In this document: in pieces, positions 44,997 through 52,046 of the stretch
Layout: each line of letters starts with the position of its first letter
How positions within the stretch are numbered: position 1 is the stretch's first letter
IMG/VR virus record: IMGVR_UViG_2565956520_000001
Direction: 5' to 3' (one strand)
DNA length: 64,000 bases
Origin: a virus
Taxonomy: Duplodnaviria > Caudoviricetes
Translations under genes and position numbers: made by a program
Notes under the pieces: model-generated
Database searches by the model: none
What the model was told of the DNA's origin: nothing
What the model saw: only the letters and a program-made list of their open reading frames with translations

Positions 44997-45119
44997 TAGG
45001 ATTTGATATAGGTAGTTGGATTGAAATATGGAATAAGCATTGACAATTATAAGTATAATGACTCTAACAAAATTGAAATTGAAAACAATTATTTTTACAT
45101 TCTAACATACACAAATACT

Positions 45120-46709
45120 ATGAAATCAATACAAGTTGAAAATCTAAAAAGTCTTGTCAAAACACCTAAAATTGAAATTAAACCTATTACTATTCTTGTT
45201 GGCAAAAATAGCAGTGGGAAAAGCACCTTTTTAAGAACCTTCCCACTTTTTAAACAGAGCGTAGAGGAAAACATAAAAGCTCCAATACTTTTTTGTGGAA
45301 ACTATGTAGATTTTGGTGAATTTGGTGAAATCAGAAATAAGAGCACTAAAAATGATTCTATAACATTCACTATTGAATCAGAAATTGATCAAAAATCGCT
45401 ACTAAATAATGCTTATAGATATAGTTTTAACTTAAGCAAATTTATGGATCAAAATAGTAATGAAATTCTTCCTATAAAATTCATATCAAAAATAAAAAAC
45501 AAAGTAAAAAATGTCCGTAATACTTATTTAGAATCTTTTAAAATATCTATAGCAGACCAGAATTTAGACTTTAAATTTGACGAAGACTCGAAGTTGATTG
45601 ATCTCAATATTAATGATGAAAGCTTTAAAGATTTTTTAGCTGACATATATAGTACAAATTCTGGATTAGTACCGAATCTCATAACTAAAATATCCTTAGA
45701 TAAAAATTACATATACAGCCATAGCTGGGTCTTTCCGCAATTCCAGGAACAATCTCGTTACGAACGCTTGGTGAAAATAATTAAGAAACACGTCTATAAT
45801 ACAACTAGTGATGAAAATATTGCCGACATTGTGCGCTCCATATCAATCGGATCCAAATCTTTCACCTTATCAAGCTGTAAAAACGATTTTCTAAAAACTA
45901 AAACTTGGATTAAAAAAGCTAAAACGTGGACTACCGATTCCAAAGAATTTCAAAGCGTTAACAATGCTTTATTGTTTGAAAATTTTATGAGTATGGTAAA
46001 TTTTATTGGTAACCATTTTAAATTATACTCTCAAAGAATTAACTATATAAGTCCTTTTAGAGCTTCTCCAGAAAGGTACTATCGCCATCAAGAATTAGCT
46101 GTCCATAACATAGATCCGCAAGGTAAAAATACAGCAATATTCCTTGACAATCTAACCAACAGGCAAAAAAAGAATTTAGAAGAATGGACCGACAACAATT
46201 TTGATATAAAACTTAAAACAACATACAAATCAGGTCATCTTTCTATTGAACTTAAAGAGAATAAATCTGATTTTTACATAAATATTGCTGACATAGGATT
46301 TGGTTATTCTCAACTTCTGCCTATTATTATCCAACTTTGGTTCAAAACTACTAAAGATCATAAAGACATAATCTTTGAAACTGGATACGAAACATTCGCT
46401 ATTGAGCAGCCAGAGTTGCACCTACACCCTAAAATGATAGGTCATTTTACGGATTTACTAGTAAAACTGATATCTTCAAATCATTTAAAAGAAACAAATA
46501 TAAAACTAATTATCGAAACTCATAGCAAGTCACTTATTAATAGAATTGGTCAACACATAGCTAAAAAAAACATTACTCCTGACTCAGTAAACGTAGTTAT
46601 ATTCGACAATAAAAACGGCTACGAATCAAACATAGACATTGCCAAATTCAATGATAAAGGAATGTTAAATAACTGGCCTGCTAATTTCTTTCTTCCGGAG
46701 CGATTTTAA
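45120..46709 (+). CDS. ABC/AAA_15-type ATPase with a DUF3696-like C-terminus (defence-type)
   Basis: GKNSSGKS Walker A, IGFGYSQLLP signature, IEQPELHLHP Walker B, IETHS H-loop and C-terminal G.L.NWP..FF. The ORF track starts at 45021. Confidence 0.85.
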   Translation: MKSIQVENLKSLVKTPKIEIKPITILVGKNSSGKSTFLRTFPLFKQSVEENIKAPILFCGNYVDFGEFGEIRNKSTKNDSITFTIESEIDQKSLLNNAYRYSFNLSKFMDQNSNEILPIKFISKIKNKVKNVRNTYLESFKISIADQNLDFKFDEDSKLIDLNINDESFKDFLADIYSTNSGLVPNLITKISLDKNYIYSHSWVFPQFQEQSRYERLVKIIKKHVYNTTSDENIADIVRSISIGSKSFTLSSCKNDFLKTKTWIKKAKTWTTDSKEFQSVNNALLFENFMSMVNFIGNHFKLYSQRINYISPFRASPERYYRHQELAVHNIDPQGKNTAIFLDNLTNRQKKNLEEWTDNNFDIKLKTTYKSGHLSIELKENKSDFYINIADIGFGYSQLLPIIIQLWFKTTKDHKDIIFETGYETFAIEQPELHLHPKMIGHFTDLLVKLISSNHLKETNIKLIIETHSKSLINRIGQHIAKKNITPDSVNVVIFDNKNGYESNIDIAKFNDKGMLNNWPANFFLPERF

Positions 46710-46710
46710 A

Positions 46711-47850
46711 ATGATTTTTGAAATTGACTCCAGCATATCTGATTTTCTTAAAAATGAGACCGGAAATCGTGATTTAACCATGAAATGTTTAAAGAAGGTC
46801 GAGGCTCTTCTATTAAATGCTAGCGATGGAAAAAATGTTATCTTTTTTGAAGATATTGAAATTATAGAATCATTAATTGACTGCGGAAAATTTTCAGAAC
46901 CGACGGGTTATTTCCTTGAATACCTAAGAGAAAACTTTGCATCTACAGGATCATTTATAGAATTAACAAGTAGACACATCAAAATTGTTTTAGAATGTGA
47001 ACCCGAAATCATTATTAACGACAAAAATCATACTGTAGTAACATTACCTATTTTTAAACTCGATCAATCTTTTTTTGGTAAAAGCGTGCTGCTAACAGAA
47101 AATCTGGTAGACGGTAAATTTTATAAGAGAATGACACAGTGTTATTGCAAAAATTACGGACAAAATATAGATTTTGATTTTGAACTAAAACATGGCGGTG
47201 GCAACAGCACAGGGACAGTATTTAAAGAAACTTTTAACAATCAAGATAAAAATTGCTTATGCATTGTTGATTCTGATAAATCTCACCCCGAATGTAACTT
47301 TAAAGAAACGGCTAAATCAGTTTTAGACGAGCATAACAATTCAGATTTAGCTAAATTTATATCCGACTTCTACATCTTAGAAGTAAAAGAGGCTGAAAAT
47401 TTGATCCCAACGGAAGTCATCGAAAAAGTAATCGATCCTCAACAAACTGATAATTTTAATACTTATAAAAGTTTAAGTAACGAGGGCGCACAATTTTTTG
47501 ACTGCAAAAAAGGAATTAATCGACGGTCTTTTTCAAAAAATAGAGATCAACTTCATCTCGAGTTTTGGAGAAAAGAGCTTGAAGGAATTGATCCAAATGC
47601 AAATGACTTTTTATCCCAAATTGCCAATAAACCTGCGGGTTGCATGACAAACTGTACAGGTTGCCTTAATAGAAATTGCAAGCAACCTTACTGCGGAGGA
47701 ATTGGAAGCAAAATCTTAGATAACTCTATTGATATAATCAATAATGACGAACAATACTCATTACGCGAGAATATTCAAAAAGAATGGGAAACCATTGCTA
47801 AGAAAATAATTACTTGGTCAATTGTTCAACCAGAATATCGATTTTCATAA
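46711..47850 (+). CDS. TOPRIM-like nuclease partner of the ATPase
   Basis: LLTEN..D, HGGG, IVDSD (DxD) and EAENLIP motifs in OLD/TOPRIM order. Starts 2 nt after the ATPase stop. Confidence 0.6.
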   Translation: MIFEIDSSISDFLKNETGNRDLTMKCLKKVEALLLNASDGKNVIFFEDIEIIESLIDCGKFSEPTGYFLEYLRENFASTGSFIELTSRHIKIVLECEPEIIINDKNHTVVTLPIFKLDQSFFGKSVLLTENLVDGKFYKRMTQCYCKNYGQNIDFDFELKHGGGNSTGTVFKETFNNQDKNCLCIVDSDKSHPECNFKETAKSVLDEHNNSDLAKFISDFYILEVKEAENLIPTEVIEKVIDPQQTDNFNTYKSLSNEGAQFFDCKKGINRRSFSKNRDQLHLEFWRKELEGIDPNANDFLSQIANKPAGCMTNCTGCLNRNCKQPYCGGIGSKILDNSIDIINNDEQYSLRENIQKEWETIAKKIITWSIVQPEYRFS

Positions 47851-47886: not shown

Positions 47887-48582
47887 CTAGCGATTAAATT
47901 CAAACGGATCAGGAACATTCTCATAGAACACCTGTTCCAGCTCATGCAGATCAACTTTGAAATATTCTCTTTTGCGGTTAATTCTGCAAGCATCTAGTTT
48001 GACATGAAGTAACTGTTCGGTCTGGAATGGCTCCATGCACTTAAAATAAAACTCAACCTTAAAAGGCATAGGGACTCCTGTCCCACTCCCGTCACGGCCT
48101 TTGTACAGATCTTCTGCTCTTCTATGTGGACAATGCTTTGTATATCCAACTTTATACAATCCCGGCATTGCGGGATTAGAAAGGCAATACACACAGCCCT
48201 CATATTCAATTTCACGCCACGCGCTAGGGGTAAAAACTTGCCGTGCAGTTGGAGTAAAAACGACATTTTTATTTGTAAGCAGTTTTGGTTTTACAATGTC
48301 ATCCTCTACAGCCTTTCTCTCCTGAATATTCACATCAGGCATACTTCGGTTGACTGAAACAGGAAAAAACCTTGATTCAAGATGGTTATAGCTTTTAAAG
48401 TATCCCCACAAAACCAAGATAACCCCAACAATTTCGGCAATGGATTCAAACCCCTGACCTAGCAATGGAGTAATTATCAAGTCTGATATATTTACCCCGA
48501 ATATCAAACCACAATATATTGCAAAGACAAAACCACATACTCCAAAAATCCAGTCCCATAATAACTTAAAAAAATAGCGCAT
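47887..48582 (-). CDS. Membrane-anchored T5orf172 (GIY-YIG-like) domain protein
   Basis: Two N-terminal TM helices; VYCLSNP.MPGLYKVGYT...R...L...TGVP.PF...EQ..H..L..R....REYF. Confidence 0.82.
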   Translation of the reverse strand: MRYFFKLLWDWIFGVCGFVFAIYCGLIFGVNISDLIITPLLGQGFESIAEIVGVILVLWGYFKSYNHLESRFFPVSVNRSMPDVNIQERKAVEDDIVKPKLLTNKNVVFTPTARQVFTPSAWREIEYEGCVYCLSNPAMPGLYKVGYTKHCPHRRAEDLYKGRDGSGTGVPMPFKVEFYFKCMEPFQTEQLLHVKLDACRINRKREYFKVDLHELEQVFYENVPDPFEFNR

Positions 48583-48674: not shown

Positions 48675-48709
48675 AAAAAAAGCCGGAACGCACGACGGCA
48701 GTTCCGGCT
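48675..48709 (-). terminator. Terminator for the minus-strand Hailong-like operon
   Basis: AGCCGGAAC / GTTCCGGCT stem with an adjacent A7 tract (T7 on the minus strand). Confidence 0.7.
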
Positions 48710-48852: not shown

Positions 48853-49155
48853 TTAATTTTCTGAACAAAAGTAGTCTTCTAATCCTTCAATCTGCCTATT
48901 CACTGCATTTTCAAGTTCAACATACTCACCAGTTATCTGCTGCTGACTTTGGTTCGCCAAAAAAAGAAGACTGCTAGATAATCCTTGAATCAACAAGACC
49001 AATTTGTCGTTTTGATCCAATTTATTCTTTAGCACCCACCTAGAAATTGAATTCTGCGACAAACCAAAAAGAGGTTCGCTGCTATCTAAAAAACGATCAT
49101 TAATGATCGTTAAAACACACCGTTGTTTATTAAGACGACTTTTAAAATCACCCAT
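48853..49155 (-). CDS. Hypothetical protein, 100 aa, translationally coupled to the NTase
   Basis: Its ATG lies within TAT GGG TGA at the NTase end, with GAGGT upstream. Confidence 0.7.
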   Translation of the reverse strand: MGDFKSRLNKQRCVLTIINDRFLDSSEPLFGLSQNSISRWVLKNKLDQNDKLVLLIQGLSSSLLFLANQSQQQITGEYVELENAVNRQIEGLEDYFCSEN

Positions 49156-49777
49156 AAAAACTATCTACCTCCTTTATCAATCTTCTCATCCAATCATCAA
49201 CGATAGGTAAAGAATCAATCGTTTCACAAATCAATTCTCTAGATGGAACACTTCCTACCCCACGAACACTAAGAATCCGTGCAGACTGTAAGCATTCATA
49301 TGCGTTCTTGGAAATGATCAAACTTTTTTCAGCCAACTCCAAAGCCGAATTTCTCGAAAAAGTTGGTTTAGTACCTAAGGCCAACGAATAGCAAGTTGCT
49401 AGATTCCTTACTGCCAAAAAAAGCGTTGAAAGCTCAAACACCTGACTATTAGTTATTTTTACAGTAGCCCTAGCAACTTCGAAAATATTGTAGAATTTCC
49501 TACAATCACTTATCGAAGAAGTATATTTATTCGGCATGCCCAAAGACTCAATGTAATCTATACCATCTTCTGAATACAACAGCCTAGATTCATAATAAAG
49601 ATGCCATGCAAAAGGATTTCCTTGCTTCCAAAGTAATTTAATTTTTTCCGGTGAATAGATAGAAAATGTTAGCGGATCAATGCGAGACAAATTAGTGTCT
49701 ACAATGGCCAACAAATCAATATCAGAACTTAAATCAATTTCACCTCGACAGACTGACCCAAAAGCATAAATGTGCAT
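49148..49777 (-). CDS. Pol-beta-family nucleotidyltransferase, Hailong HalB-like
   Basis: YAFGS..RG..D..SD.DLL motif, helical C-terminal domain, and a terminus ...SFYG with a penultimate Tyr. Confidence 0.75.
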   Translation of the reverse strand: MHIYAFGSVCRGEIDLSSDIDLLAIVDTNLSRIDPLTFSIYSPEKIKLLWKQGNPFAWHLYYESRLLYSEDGIDYIESLGMPNKYTSSISDCRKFYNIFEVARATVKITNSQVFELSTLFLAVRNLATCYSLALGTKPTFSRNSALELAEKSLIISKNAYECLQSARILSVRGVGSVPSRELICETIDSLPIVDDWMRRLIKEVDSFYG

Positions 49778-49778
49778 T

Positions 49779-50594
49779 TTATCTTTTATTAAACCTTTTA
49801 AGAATTATTGACATAAAAAATCCAAACATAACTAGTCGAACGAATTTTATCACTGTTAAGGATACAGAACTATAGCTTTTAGGGGAGAATGTGCCTAAAA
49901 ATATTTGTGGAGCCACCTCCACCGACTCCCATAATTCAGAAACGAGTTTTGATTCGGTATGATATATAAAATTAAAAAAAGCGATGCTCACGAACACCAG
50001 CCCCACAGCTCTACACAATTTATATGTACTTTCACCATTTCCCCAAATAAAATCTAAGCTAATAAAATTAACATAGCTCATAAAAGATTTTAGACGAGCA
50101 AAGCCTTTATATTTTCTCCTATAGTAAGACTCTTTAGAAAGACATGACTTACGTAGATGAACCTTAGTAGATTCTAGTTCTATCTTTATTGCCTTATTAA
50201 CTGACTGGACTTCGCCCAGAGATTGATAATTTTTACGTAAAGTTCGTGCAAATGAACTTTTTAAATTATCATATGCAGGACAACATACATCAAGAATTTC
50301 ACTAGTGATAATTGTTTTATCAAAGTAAGAATAATCAAAAGAGCATCCTTCAAACGTGCTACCATTAAAATTTGAATTAATAAAACGACATCCAGTAAAA
50401 TTACATGAATCAAAATTGCAATTTCTTAGATACGAAGAATCAAATATACAGTATTTGAAATCAACTTCTTTAAAAGTTTTCCCCTTTACAACTAGCCGCA
50501 AAAATAATTTATTAGCTAAATCTATATTTGCAAGATCCTCATTTATTTTTTTATCTGTTTCAATAATCCTATCGCTATCGGTTAGAATATCCAT
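49779..50594 (-). CDS. Pentapeptide-repeat + 2-TM pore-loop membrane protein, Hailong HalA-like
   Basis: Pentapeptide repeats (FKEVD FKYCI FDSSY LRNCN FDSCN FTGCR FINSN FNGST), then WGNGE, TM1, a pore-like segment and TM2. Confidence 0.75.
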   Translation of the reverse strand: MDILTDSDRIIETDKKINEDLANIDLANKLFLRLVVKGKTFKEVDFKYCIFDSSYLRNCNFDSCNFTGCRFINSNFNGSTFEGCSFDYSYFDKTIITSEILDVCCPAYDNLKSSFARTLRKNYQSLGEVQSVNKAIKIELESTKVHLRKSCLSKESYYRRKYKGFARLKSFMSYVNFISLDFIWGNGESTYKLCRAVGLVFVSIAFFNFIYHTESKLVSELWESVEVAPQIFLGTFSPKSYSSVSLTVIKFVRLVMFGFFMSIILKRFNKR

Positions 50595-50673
50595 AATCTA
50601 TTTAAGCCTTGATTTAGATGTTAAAATCAACCTTTCTTTTAAGAAGAACTAACCTGTTATAATAAAATCAACT

Positions 50674-51399
50674 CTATAATTTATCAACATTAAGAATAGA
50701 ATATAAATCAATTTCTTTTGGATCTAAACCTGCGAGATGCAAAGCAATCTGAGCCTTAACAACAGCAGAAATATCCTTATTTTCAATACTCTCAACTAAA
50801 CATTGAGATTTCAACATTTGATTATCAGACCTCAACCTATCGTAAAGAGCAGTTGCTCTTTCTCTAGTTTGCTCAGACTGTTTAAAGAATAACAGCGCAA
50901 CACCATCAATTACAACTCCAGGCATAATTTGCATATAGCTACTAAAAACATCTGGTGAAATTAATGCTGCTTTATAGATTATCAAAACAAAACCAACAGT
51001 AGCAGCTACTACACTAAACCAAAATTGAACTTTAGCTTGAGCAAGAGCCTGATGATGATAACCTTTAACAAGATCTTGAATAACCCTTCCGTCATAATTG
51101 AGCGTTTCATTAACTCCTCGCCCCAACTCGCTGGATCTATTCAAACCAGCCCTTCCCCCAGCAGCCATACCGCAACCGGCCACTTCCCCACTACTAAAGT
51201 CATCAGTTTTTTTTACCTTTAAAACTTGGGATTTTGCCTTCTCAGCAATGCTTTCTATCTCGTCTTCTTTCTCTTTTTGTTGCTTTCGATAAAATGAAGA
51301 GAGTAGAGAAGTTACTAGTCCTAAGACAGCAGATATCAATCCAGCCATAATTGTTACAACAGATTCAGATGCTAGCGAAGCGACTATATCCAAGCTCAT
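50674..51399 (-). CDS. Membrane protein resembling the TRADD-N-associated 2-TM domain
   Basis: YH.QALAQA..QFWFS..AA..GF..II...G...D.VA.LFF.Q pattern, recalled from that family and not verified. Confidence 0.5.
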   Translation of the reverse strand: MSLDIVASLASESVVTIMAGLISAVLGLVTSLLSSFYRKQQKEKEDEIESIAEKAKSQVLKVKKTDDFSSGEVAGCGMAAGGRAGLNRSSELGRGVNETLNYDGRVIQDLVKGYHHQALAQAKVQFWFSVVAATVGFVLIIYKAALISPDVFSSYMQIMPGVVIDGVALLFFKQSEQTRERATALYDRLRSDNQMLKSQCLVESIENKDISAVVKAQIALHLAGLDPKEIDLYSILNVDKL

Positions 51400-51653: not shown

Positions 51654-52046
51654 TCATACCTTCACTTGCTTCTTTCTTAACTTCAAAACCCCTGCTCCAA
51701 ATTCTATTTCTTCATAATCTTTATATAACGCAACAAGAACAGTCACCCCTATAGCTACAGCTGGTATTATTGCGGCTATTTCCATGCCAGATAAAGCGGC
51801 AACCGAAGTGACCGCTGCAGCTCCAATCGGGCCTGTTAATGCGGCAACACCTCCAAGACCCAACATTGCAGCAATGCCTGCGGCACCAACTAATGCAATT
51901 TTTTTTGTACTATGAAGCTTGTCAGCGAATTCACCATAAACGATGATTTGATCGGCTCCACTACTCATAGCTTCTTCAAGTTCTTCTTTCGTATAAACTA
52001 CAACTTCTTCCAAAATAGCACTCCTTATATTCATAAATAAAAACAA
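51654..52046 (-). CDS. Small Gly/Ala-rich membrane protein (glycine-zipper-like); real start probably the TTG at LEEVVV
   Basis: GAAGIAAMLGLGGVAALTGPIGAAA and a following hydrophobic helix. AAGGAG upstream of the internal TTG. Confidence 0.65.
   Translation of the reverse strand: MFLFMNIRSAILEEVVVYTKEELEEAMSSGADQIIVYGEFADKLHSTKKIALVGAAGIAAMLGLGGVAALTGPIGAAAVTSVAALSGMEIAAIIPAVAIGVTVLVALYKDYEEIEFGAGVLKLRKKQVKV

What the first reader, a model, noticed from the sequence alone, without database searches (positions are those of the whole stretch)
48853..50594. Hailong-like operon with a translationally coupled third gene
Seen: a pentapeptide-repeat/2-TM pore protein, an NTase starting 1 nt after it and ending ...SFYG, and a 100-aa ORF whose ATG overlaps the NTase's last codons, followed by a terminator. 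Established: Hailong uses an NTase (HalB) that primes oligo-dA synthesis from a C-terminal tyrosine to hold a membrane channel (HalA) inactive. Inference: this is a Hailong-family system. The priming Tyr codon itself supplies the third gene's ATG (TAT G), which would physically link the two. I cannot verify whether such a third gene is already described.
Basis: partly seen in the sequence, partly recalled or inferred. Interest (0 to 1): 0.7.

Follow-up and report, generated by a model that had tools for sequence, protein, structure and literature searches.

The report
Three-gene relative of Hailong defence
This three-gene operon on a prophage-like island encodes distant relatives of the Hailong anti-phage pair (a DNA-gated membrane channel and the enzyme that makes its DNA lock) plus a small third protein that always travels with them, and the tyrosine taken for the DNA-priming residue is a side effect of the third gene's overlapping start codon.

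Summary
On the minus strand lie A (50594-49779, 271 aa), B (49777-49148, 209 aa, ends SFYG) and C (49155-48853, 100 aa, 8-nt overlap ATGGGTGA), then a terminator.

A and B are real but distant Hailong relatives. B's best family and only significant PDB hits are HalB. A's model matches HalA (9nyi) over its full length. Both score far below NCBIfam's HalA and HalB cut-offs.

C is not incidental. A C homologue follows B in 85 of 85 related loci from many phyla and in more distant plasmid copies, and its start overlaps B's end in 75 of 82. It is missing from the three two-gene Hailong-like loci examined. C has no Pfam, NCBIfam, PADLOC or PHROG family and no informative fold match.

The "priming Tyr supplies the ATG" idea fails. 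At that position homologues carry Tyr, His, Asn or Asp, which are the four NAT codons. Only 23 of 82 have any Tyr in the last 10 residues. The codon is shaped by C's start.

Best reading: a three-gene variant of Hailong-type defence in which C is an obligate partner of B. C may supply the primer or carrier function that B's short tail lacks; this is inferred.

The scan reported this three-gene family before in four other genomes.

The parts
50659..50687 (-). Promoter-like site upstream of gene A (TTGATA, 17 nt, TATTAT)
   Evidence: Consensus scan, 10 of 12 matches. It lies between the stop of the upstream 2-TM gene (50674) and A's start (50594). This is a consensus match only.
49779..50594 (-). 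Gene A: HalA-like effector, 271 aa, with an N-terminal pentapeptide-repeat beta-helix, a helical linker and a C-terminal membrane pore domain carrying the conserved P-Q-I-F-L-G loop
   Evidence: Pfam PF00805 E 1.3e-12. NCBIfam HalA 25.5 bits, over the repeats only. AF2 model pLDDT 94.3. Foldseek's top hit is 9nyi_A HalA, E 1.8e-9. VIA-align gives Z 15.7 with 253 residues aligned, model 9-270 against chain 57-356, the only full-length match. An A homologue is conserved upstream of B in 75 of 85 loci; the rest are cut by contig ends or disrupted.
49148..49777 (-). Gene B: HalB-like nucleotidyltransferase, 209 aa, with motif G7-S8, D19, D21 and E63; it starts 1 nt after A's stop
   Evidence: Best NCBIfam hit is HalB NF051895, 48.6 bits, E 7.3e-13, residues 6-147 on profile 5-147/211, against a cut-off of 190. 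The only significant PDB hits are HalB 9dbj, 9dbh and 9dbi. More than 1200 homologues at about 50% identity. Catalytic residues are invariant in 36 homologues.
49148..49155 (-). 8-nt overlap ATGGGTGA: C's start codon uses B's Tyr208 codon (TAT) plus the G of Gly209
   Evidence: Read from the sequence. The same kind of overlap occurs in 75 of 82 homologous loci (classes 8, 14, 4, 17 and 26 nt). The B residue at that position is Tyr, His, Asn or Asp, the four NAT codons.
48853..49155 (-). Gene C: conserved 100-aa helical protein of unknown family, an obligate third component
   Evidence: An HMM of C hits directly after B in 85 of 85 loci, E 1e-17 to 1e-54. An exhaustive profile search finds 355 clusters, almost all 95-110 aa. 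Invariant residues are R7, R12, N19, L29, R39 and S70; Y78 is kept in 96%. AF2 model pLDDT 86.5 with four helices. No Pfam, NCBIfam, PADLOC or PHROG family.
48675..48709 (-). Intrinsic terminator closing the operon
   Evidence: RNA fold -22.8 kcal/mol, z -3.64, a 9-bp GC-rich stem followed by U7.

Best explanation
This is a member of a widespread, horizontally mobile, three-gene branch of Hailong-type anti-phage defence. By homology, A is a tetrameric HalA-like membrane channel whose basic cytosolic pentapeptide-repeat domain binds a nucleic-acid ligand. B is a HalB-like nucleotidyltransferase that constitutively makes that inhibitory ligand and so keeps A closed. When the ligand is lost during infection, the channel opens, the membrane depolarises and infection aborts. 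C is an obligate partner made in step with B through the overlapping start codon. B has only a short, unconserved C-terminal tail, unlike HalB with its long Tyr-bearing tail, and C is occasionally fused to B's C-terminus. I therefore infer that C acts with B, most likely as the primer or carrier (or hand-over subunit) for B's product. C's conserved loop from S70 to Y78 (consensus K-S-Q-E-Q-[IV]-[TS]-[ED]-[ED]-Y) is the candidate site. Tyr208 of B is incidental. Shown here: the homologies, the structural match, the conservation and coupling of C, and the non-conservation of the Tyr. Inferred: the ligand, the gating, the trigger and C's role.
For: - B is related to HalB. NCBIfam HalB is its best family hit (E 7.3e-13). 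HalB chains are the only significant PDB hits. The shared region goes beyond the generic NTase motif: G-N-P-F-A-W-H-L..E-S in B against G-D-L-F-A-I-H-L..E-G in HalB.
- A matches HalA over its full length. Foldseek E is 1.8e-9. VIA-align gives Z 15.7 with 253 of 271 residues aligned, while all other hits cover only the repeat domain.
- A's cytosolic part is basic, median pI 8.8.
- The A-B-C order and tight spacing are conserved in 85 loci from more than 10 phyla and on plasmids.
- C's start overlaps B's end in 75 of 82 loci. 60 of 82 have a Shine-Dalgarno-like (SD-like) ribosome-binding motif, most often 7-9 nt upstream.
- B-C fusion proteins exist: P0197, with A upstream and C's start codon changed to Ile, and P0262.
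- C is absent from the three two-gene Hailong-like loci examined: L098 near-canonical, L086, and L087 in this same genome. C-bearing B proteins fall on one side of a branch with 99% SH-aLRT support.
- The near-canonical HalB in L098 carries a 24-residue tail ending NHYR. The alignment to PDB HalB stops about 34 residues before its C-terminus. Window B has about 5 residues after its last conserved helix.
- The context fits defence cargo. The block at 45-51.5 kb has GC 0.28-0.38 against 0.44-0.48 in the flanks. It also holds an AAA_15/PDC-M55-like pair, a T5orf172 protein and a 2-TM protein, and sits next to an integrase, ParA, CI/Cro-type regulators and a 3500-aa polyvalent protein.
- The distribution is patchy: C was found in 2 of 251 genomes sampled from the same taxonomic family.
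Against: - No experiment exists for this family. Defence, oligo-dA synthesis and gating are all extrapolated from Hailong.
- Sequence similarity to HalA is confined to the pentapeptide repeats.
- Both proteins fail NCBIfam's equivalog cut-offs by a wide margin.
- C's role rests on indirect evidence. Y78 is replaced by Ser, His or Asp in three homologues and is not kept in the distant Salinivibrio copy.
- C is roughly neutral to acidic: median pI 6.25, and 4.8 in this window. That does not suggest a general DNA binder.
- Distance correlations give only a weak preference for B over A as C's partner: partial r 0.33 against 0.22.
- The two fusions come from single metagenomic contigs and could be assembly errors.
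- I could not read the primary Hailong paper.
Confidence: 0.7

Rival explanations
1. The canonical Hailong mechanism applies unchanged. B primes oligo-dA on its own C-terminal Tyr208, and C is a dispensable accessory or regulator.
For: Window B ends F-Y-G with the Tyr penultimate, like the near-canonical HalB in L098, which ends H-Y-R. 22 of 82 homologues also have a Tyr at this spot.
Against: The position is Tyr, His, Asn or Asp, the four NAT codons, depending on C's ATG. 59 of 82 homologues have no Tyr in their last 10 residues. The tail beyond the last helix is about 5 residues, against about 24-34 in HalB. C is present in 85 of 85 loci, which is not the pattern of a dispensable accessory.
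Confidence: 0.1
2. B works like the type VII toxin-antitoxin enzyme MntA. It transfers one or a few nucleotides onto a hydroxyl of protein C (S70, T/S75 or Y78). Modified or unmodified C, rather than free DNA, controls channel A.
For: B's second-best NCBIfam hit is MntA (E 0.0025). C has an invariant Ser and a 96%-conserved Tyr in a lower-confidence loop between helices 3 and 4. B and C are coupled and occasionally fused.
Against: B is far closer to HalB than to MntA (48.6 against 17.7 bits). A keeps the whole HalA architecture, whose known ligand is oligo-dA (review PMC13434031). C has no similarity to HEPN toxins.
Confidence: 0.12
3. C is a small DNA-binding transcription regulator that sets the operon's expression level.
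For: The motif E-E-L-x-G-L-S-x-x-A-I-x-R-W-x-x-x-N looks like a helix-turn-helix. Toxic effectors often need tight regulation.
Against: The model shows no helix before the R-W helix; residues 22-33 are coil. No HTH protein appears among the fold matches and there is no HTH Pfam hit in 77 members. C sits last in the operon and is translationally coupled to B, and B-C fusions exist, which is unusual for an autoregulator. C is neutral to acidic.
Confidence: 0.06

Closest known systems
Hailong anti-phage system, HalA/HalB (Tan et al., Nature 2025, doi 10.1038/s41586-025-09058-z; PDB 9nyi, 9dbh, 9dbi, 9dbj; summarised in PMC13434031)
   Same: The gene order is channel first, then NTase, tightly coupled. 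A shares HalA's full-length fold: pentapeptide beta-helix, helical linker and membrane pore. B is homologous to HalB across the NTase core and part of the helical domain. The system sits on mobile elements and in defence-cargo regions.
   Different: There are three genes, not two, with an obligate 100-aa protein C that has no counterpart in HalA or HalB. B lacks HalB's long tail and has no conserved C-terminal Tyr. A is about 70-100 residues shorter than HalA. Both proteins score far below NCBIfam's cut-offs. RefSeq names them only 'pentapeptide repeat-containing protein', 'nucleotidyltransferase' and 'hypothetical protein'.
Two-gene Hailong-like pairs with a potassium-channel-type filter (for example this genome's contig 13, locus L087; compare the P4-satellite 'Hailong' in PMC13586616)
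   Same: A pentapeptide-repeat channel plus a HalB-like NTase; one such pair is present in the same genome.
   Different: That pair keeps a T-T-L-G-Y-G filter and has a 290-aa NTase (77.6 bits to HalB). It has no gene C. The window's A has F-L-G-T at the corresponding loop.
MntA-HepT type VII toxin-antitoxin (a minimal NTase that adenylylates a Tyr of its partner)
   Same: A small Pol-beta-type NTase is paired with a small helical partner that carries a conserved hydroxyl residue. B has a weak MntA hit.
   Different: C is not a HEPN protein, and a HalA-like channel is the evident effector. This is a resemblance of idea only.
Protein-primed template-independent DNA synthesis in defence (HalB; DRT1, PMC13275509; DRT9, PMC12483538)
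   Same: If C is the primer, the chemistry would be the same: a protein hydroxyl starts a DNA chain that regulates an effector.
   Different: In those systems the primer residue lies in the polymerase itself. A separate primer protein for a Pol-beta NTase would be new. This was not tested here.

Membership tests
Hailong (HalB) | Scores above NCBIfam equivalog NF051895 cut-off (190 bits) | tested here: not met
   48.6 bits, E 7.3e-13, residues 6-147 on profile 5-147/211. Homologues from three other genomes score about 36-38 bits.
Hailong (HalB) | Homology to the HalB nucleotidyltransferase, with intact catalytic G-S and D-x-D motifs and the third acidic residue | tested here: met
   HalB is the best NCBIfam hit. 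HalB chains are the only significant PDB hits: E 2.4e-5 for the single sequence and 6.3e-8 for the family profile. G7, S8, D19, D21 and E63 are invariant in the family.
Hailong (HalB) | Tyrosine that primes DNA synthesis. The review says a HalB tyrosine hydroxyl; that it is C-terminal is my recollection of Tan et al. and fits the ...NHYR end of the near-canonical HalB in L098. | tested here: not met
   Window B has Y208. Across 82 homologues only 23 have any Tyr in the last 10 residues. At the aligned position the residue is Tyr 22, His 17, Asn 11, Asp 5.
Hailong (HalA) | Scores above NCBIfam equivalog NF051894 cut-off (250 bits) | tested here: not met
   25.5 bits, over the pentapeptide repeats only.
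Hailong (HalA) | Architecture of a cytosolic pentapeptide-repeat crown plus a membrane channel domain | tested here: met
   AF2 model pLDDT 94.3. 9nyi_A is Foldseek's top hit, E 1.8e-9. VIA-align gives Z 15.7, rmsd 5.8 and 253 residues aligned over model 9-270.
Hailong (system) | Two-gene operon, halA then halB | tested here: not met
   The A-then-B order is kept, but a third gene C is present in 85 of 85 loci. C is absent from near-canonical and other two-gene loci.
Hailong (system) | Oligo-dA synthesis, DNA gating of the channel, triggering by a phage exonuclease, and phage protection | not testable with these tools
   These need biochemistry and phage assays.
Type VII TA (MntA-HepT) | MntA equivalog score (60 bits) and a HEPN partner | tested here: not met
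   MntA 17.7 bits. C has no HEPN or other family hit and no informative fold match.

The most novel reading that the evidence does not exclude
Gene C encodes a detached protein primer or carrier. The HalB-like enzyme B starts its DNA chain on a hydroxyl in C's conserved S70-Y78 loop rather than on its own tail. The C-DNA conjugate, or DNA released from it, is what holds channel A shut. This would be the first Pol-beta-type nucleotidyltransferase found to use a separate primer protein in immunity.
Probability: 0.25. Interest if true: 0.8.

Novelty: new variant of a known kind. Interest (0 to 1): 0.6.

Why it matters
Hailong is the model for defence by a constitutively made DNA "lock" on a lethal channel. 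This branch is large: more than 1200 B homologues and 355 C clusters, spread over more than ten phyla. It replaces HalB's self-priming tail with an obligate extra protein, which shows that the mechanism is modular.

It also offers a natural experiment on three questions: how template-independent DNA synthesis is started, how the product reaches the channel, and what phages must attack to trigger the system.

On the practical side, no current annotation resource names the three genes, so these loci are invisible to defence-system finders. The NAT-G pattern is also a clear example of how an overlapping start codon can imitate a "conserved" functional residue.

Tried and rejected
- A word-seeded homologue search with C alone found only C itself. 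This was a sensitivity limit, not absence: synteny plus an HMM recovered C everywhere.
- I tested whether C is a split-off piece of HalA or HalB. hhalign of the C profile against the L098 HalA and HalB and the L087 NTase gave probabilities below 1%. Rejected.
- I tested whether C is an HTH regulator. The model, the fold searches and Pfam give no support.
- Fold searches with the C model returned only generic helical bundles. Foldseek's best E was 1.8. VIA-align's best Z was 8.8, within the noise range for helical proteins. The ESM Atlas gave no named relative.
- PADLOC gave nothing for A, a 12.5-bit NsnC hit for C that I treat as noise, and only generic MNT-like hits for B. PHROGs gave only families of unknown function.
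- I looked for bona fide HalB, above cut-off, in 301 genomes of the same class, 401 of the same phylum and 401 of the order containing genome G688 (the Pantoea locus L037). None passed the cut-off. The best was L098 at 162.8 bits.
- The system was not found in the E. coli genome collection by megablast with the enterobacterial copy, nor in the phage collection by tblastn.
- The primary Hailong paper is not held. Literature searches for a third Hailong gene or a three-gene pentapeptide/NTase system found nothing.
- Distance correlations (mirror tree) between A, B and C were too weak to assign C's partner.

Full report
**What is there**

Three genes lie head to tail on the minus strand.
- A runs from 50594 to 49779 (271 aa).
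- B runs from 49777 to 49148 (209 aa). It starts one base after A's stop.
- C runs from 49155 to 48853 (100 aa). Its ATG is built from the AT of B's Tyr208 codon and the G of Gly209, giving the 8-nt overlap ATGGGTGA. An AAGGAGG Shine-Dalgarno-like (SD-like) ribosome-binding motif lies 12 nt upstream, inside B.

A promoter-like site (10 of 12 matches) lies at 50687-50659. A strong hairpin followed by U7 lies at 48709-48675 (-22.8 kcal/mol, z -3.64).

**Are A and B Hailong proteins?**

B's best NCBIfam family is HalB (48.6 bits, E 7.3e-13, residues 6-147 on profile positions 5-147 of 211). That is far below the curated 190-bit cut-off. The only significant PDB matches, both for B and for a profile of 36 homologues, are the three HalB entries. 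The shared stretch includes a HalB-specific block after the catalytic aspartates. The catalytic residues G7, S8, D19, D21 and E63 are invariant in the family.

A matches the HalA model only over its pentapeptide repeats (25.5 bits against 250). Profile comparison with two HalA-like sequences extends only a little past the repeats. Structure settles the question. A's AlphaFold model (pLDDT 94.3) has HalA (9nyi_A) as its top Foldseek hit (E 1.8e-9). In the second-look alignment, 9nyi_A is the only chain that covers the whole protein: Z 15.7, 253 residues, model 9-270 against chain 57-356. Ordinary pentapeptide proteins stop near residue 150.

So A and B work like, and descend with, HalA and HalB. 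They are not members of the curated equivalog families.

**The third gene**

A word-seeded search with C alone found nothing. However, the contigs that carry B homologues from Legionella spiritensis and Enterobacteriaceae show the same layout: 268 aa, then 207 or 211 aa, then 104 or 102 aa. Their third proteins are 34-37% identical to C.

I fetched 80 loci from one-genome-per-species contigs spanning Pseudomonadota, Cyanobacteriota, Acidobacteriota, Verrucomicrobiota, Planctomycetota, Chloroflexota, Saccharimonadota and others. An HMM of C hit immediately downstream of B in 85 of 85 loci analysed, with E from 1e-17 to 1e-54. One further locus, L069, was skipped because my motif missed its NTase. 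A homologues precede B in 75 of the 85; the rest are cut by contig ends or disrupted.

An exhaustive profile search of 1.8 billion representatives found 355 C clusters, nearly all 95-110 aa. More distant three-gene copies on plasmids also carry C. These are Pseudomonas pGLE121P1, Salinivibrio and Piscirickettsia, with B only 27-35% identical to the window's. RefSeq labels C there as "hypothetical protein".

C is absent from the three two-gene Hailong-like loci I examined:
- L098, a near-canonical pair (HalA 225 bits, HalB 162.8 bits);
- L086;
- L087, a second Hailong-like pair on contig 13 of this same genome.

In a quick maximum-likelihood tree, all 86 C-bearing NTases sit on one side of a branch with 99% SH-aLRT support, against the three two-gene ones. 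That sample is small. The window's B groups with the Legionella copy, and the taxonomy is scrambled, which indicates horizontal transfer. In a sample of 251 genomes from the host's own taxonomic family, C occurs in only two, and one of those copies is split by an insertion.

**The tyrosine**

The overlap is real, and it is typical of the family. C's start overlaps B's end in 75 of 82 non-redundant loci, by 8, 14, 4, 17 or 26 nt.

In the 61 loci where B's codon provides the first two bases of the start codon, the residue is Tyr (TAT) 22 times, His (CAT) 17, Asn (AAT) 11, Asp (GAT) 5 and other 6. The next residue is Glu or Gly, both G-initial codons, in 59. That is the signature of selection on ATG in the other frame, not on tyrosine.

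The recurring B tails YERV and HERI(Q) are C's conserved N-terminus (M-S/N-E-F) read in B's frame. Only 23 of 82 B proteins have any Tyr in the last ten residues.

The near-canonical HalB of L098 has a 24-residue tail ending NHYR. The alignment to the crystallised HalB stops about 34 residues before its C-terminus. Window B has about five residues after its last conserved helix. This family therefore lacks the HalB-type priming tail as a conserved feature.

One caveat on sources. That HalB's primer is a tyrosine hydroxyl comes from the review PMC13434031. That it is C-terminal is my recollection of the primary paper, which is not held.

**What C might do**

C's model (pLDDT 86.5) has four helices: 2-21, 34-43, 51-69 and 76-99. 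It has no informative fold match, no Atlas lead and no family in four libraries. It is not a fragment of HalA or HalB.

Invariant or nearly invariant residues are mostly polar: R7, Q11, R12, N19, E27, R39, W40, N44, S70, Q71 and Y78. The loop between helices 3 and 4 has the consensus K-S-Q-E-Q-[IV]-[TS]-[ED]-[ED]-Y. It has lower model confidence. It holds the invariant S70, T/S75 (91%) and Y78 (96%). Y78 is replaced by Ser, His or Asp in three cases and is not kept in Salinivibrio.

Two proteins fuse B directly to C. One of them, P0197, has A upstream and an Ile in place of C's start Met.

Four facts point to a B-associated subunit: translational coupling, strict co-occurrence with tail-less B proteins, fusion at B's C-terminus, and a conserved flexible hydroxyl-bearing loop. 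The role I consider most likely is primer or carrier for B's product. This is inference. Distance correlations favour B over A as C's partner only weakly, and C is not basic.

**Context**

The operon sits in a low-GC block (0.28-0.38 against 0.44-0.48). Its neighbours are an AAA_15 ATPase with a PDC-M55B-like partner, a membrane-anchored T5orf172 protein and a TRADD-N-associated 2-TM protein. The block is flanked by a phage-type integrase, ParA, CI/Cro-type regulators and a 3500-aa polyvalent protein. This is what defence cargo on a temperate element looks like.

**Comparison and novelty**

The closest known system is Hailong. This operon shares its effector fold, its enzyme family and its gene order. 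It differs in the obligate third protein and in the missing conserved priming tail.

I found no description of this variant in the searchable literature. PADLOC 2.0 does not cover it. I rate it a new variant of a known kind.

The scan has reported the same three-gene family in four other genomes. Those notes agree with what I tested independently here.

Noticed in passing
Own genome, contig 13 (locus L087: 1156-2939, minus strand): A second, two-gene Hailong-like pair in the same genome. It has a 304-aa pentapeptide-repeat channel with a potassium-channel filter (T-T-L-G-Y-G; KirBac and NaK hits) and a 290-aa HalB-like NTase (77.6 bits). It has no gene C.
   Followed up: partly
window 45021-47850 (+): An AAA_15/AAA_21 ATPase (562 aa; PADLOC NsnB 6e-50, PDC-M55A 2e-45) is followed, with a 1-nt gap, by a 379-aa protein matching PDC-M55B (E 1.8e-9). 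This is a candidate two-gene defence module in the same low-GC block.
   Followed up: partly
window 47887-48582 (-): A 231-aa protein with hydrophobic N-terminal segments and a T5orf172/MUG113 (GIY-YIG-like) domain. PADLOC PDC-S57, E 4.5e-22.
   Followed up: no
window 50674-51399 (-) and 51654-52046 (-): Two small membrane proteins lie directly upstream of the operon. One carries the cyanobacterial TRADD-N-associated 2-TM domain (PF20712, E 2e-14). The other matches phrog_25580 (E 9e-25, function unknown).
   Followed up: no
B homologues across loci L006-L085 (last 4-8 codons of B): The apparently conserved B tail motifs YERV, HERI and NG are gene C's N-terminus (M-S/N-E-F) read in B's frame. 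This is a dual-coding artefact that imitates a functional motif.
   Followed up: yes
P0197 (locus L102: 1114-2091) and P0262: These are natural or assembly-derived fusions of B and C into a single protein of about 325 aa. In P0197, C's start Met is replaced by Ile and gene A lies upstream.
   Followed up: partly
G172 contig 27 (loci L089, L104): In a relative from the same taxonomic family, the B-like gene and the body of C lie about 1.7 kb apart, with only C's first 16 residues left next to B. The operon appears to have been disrupted by an insertion.
   Followed up: no
L003/L004 (Enterobacteriaceae) and L001 (Legionella spiritensis): The three-gene operon lies just downstream of a D5_N/DUF5906/Pox_D5 primase (P4-satellite-like) or a DUF927 primase-helicase. 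This suggests carriage in satellite or island cargo slots.
   Followed up: no
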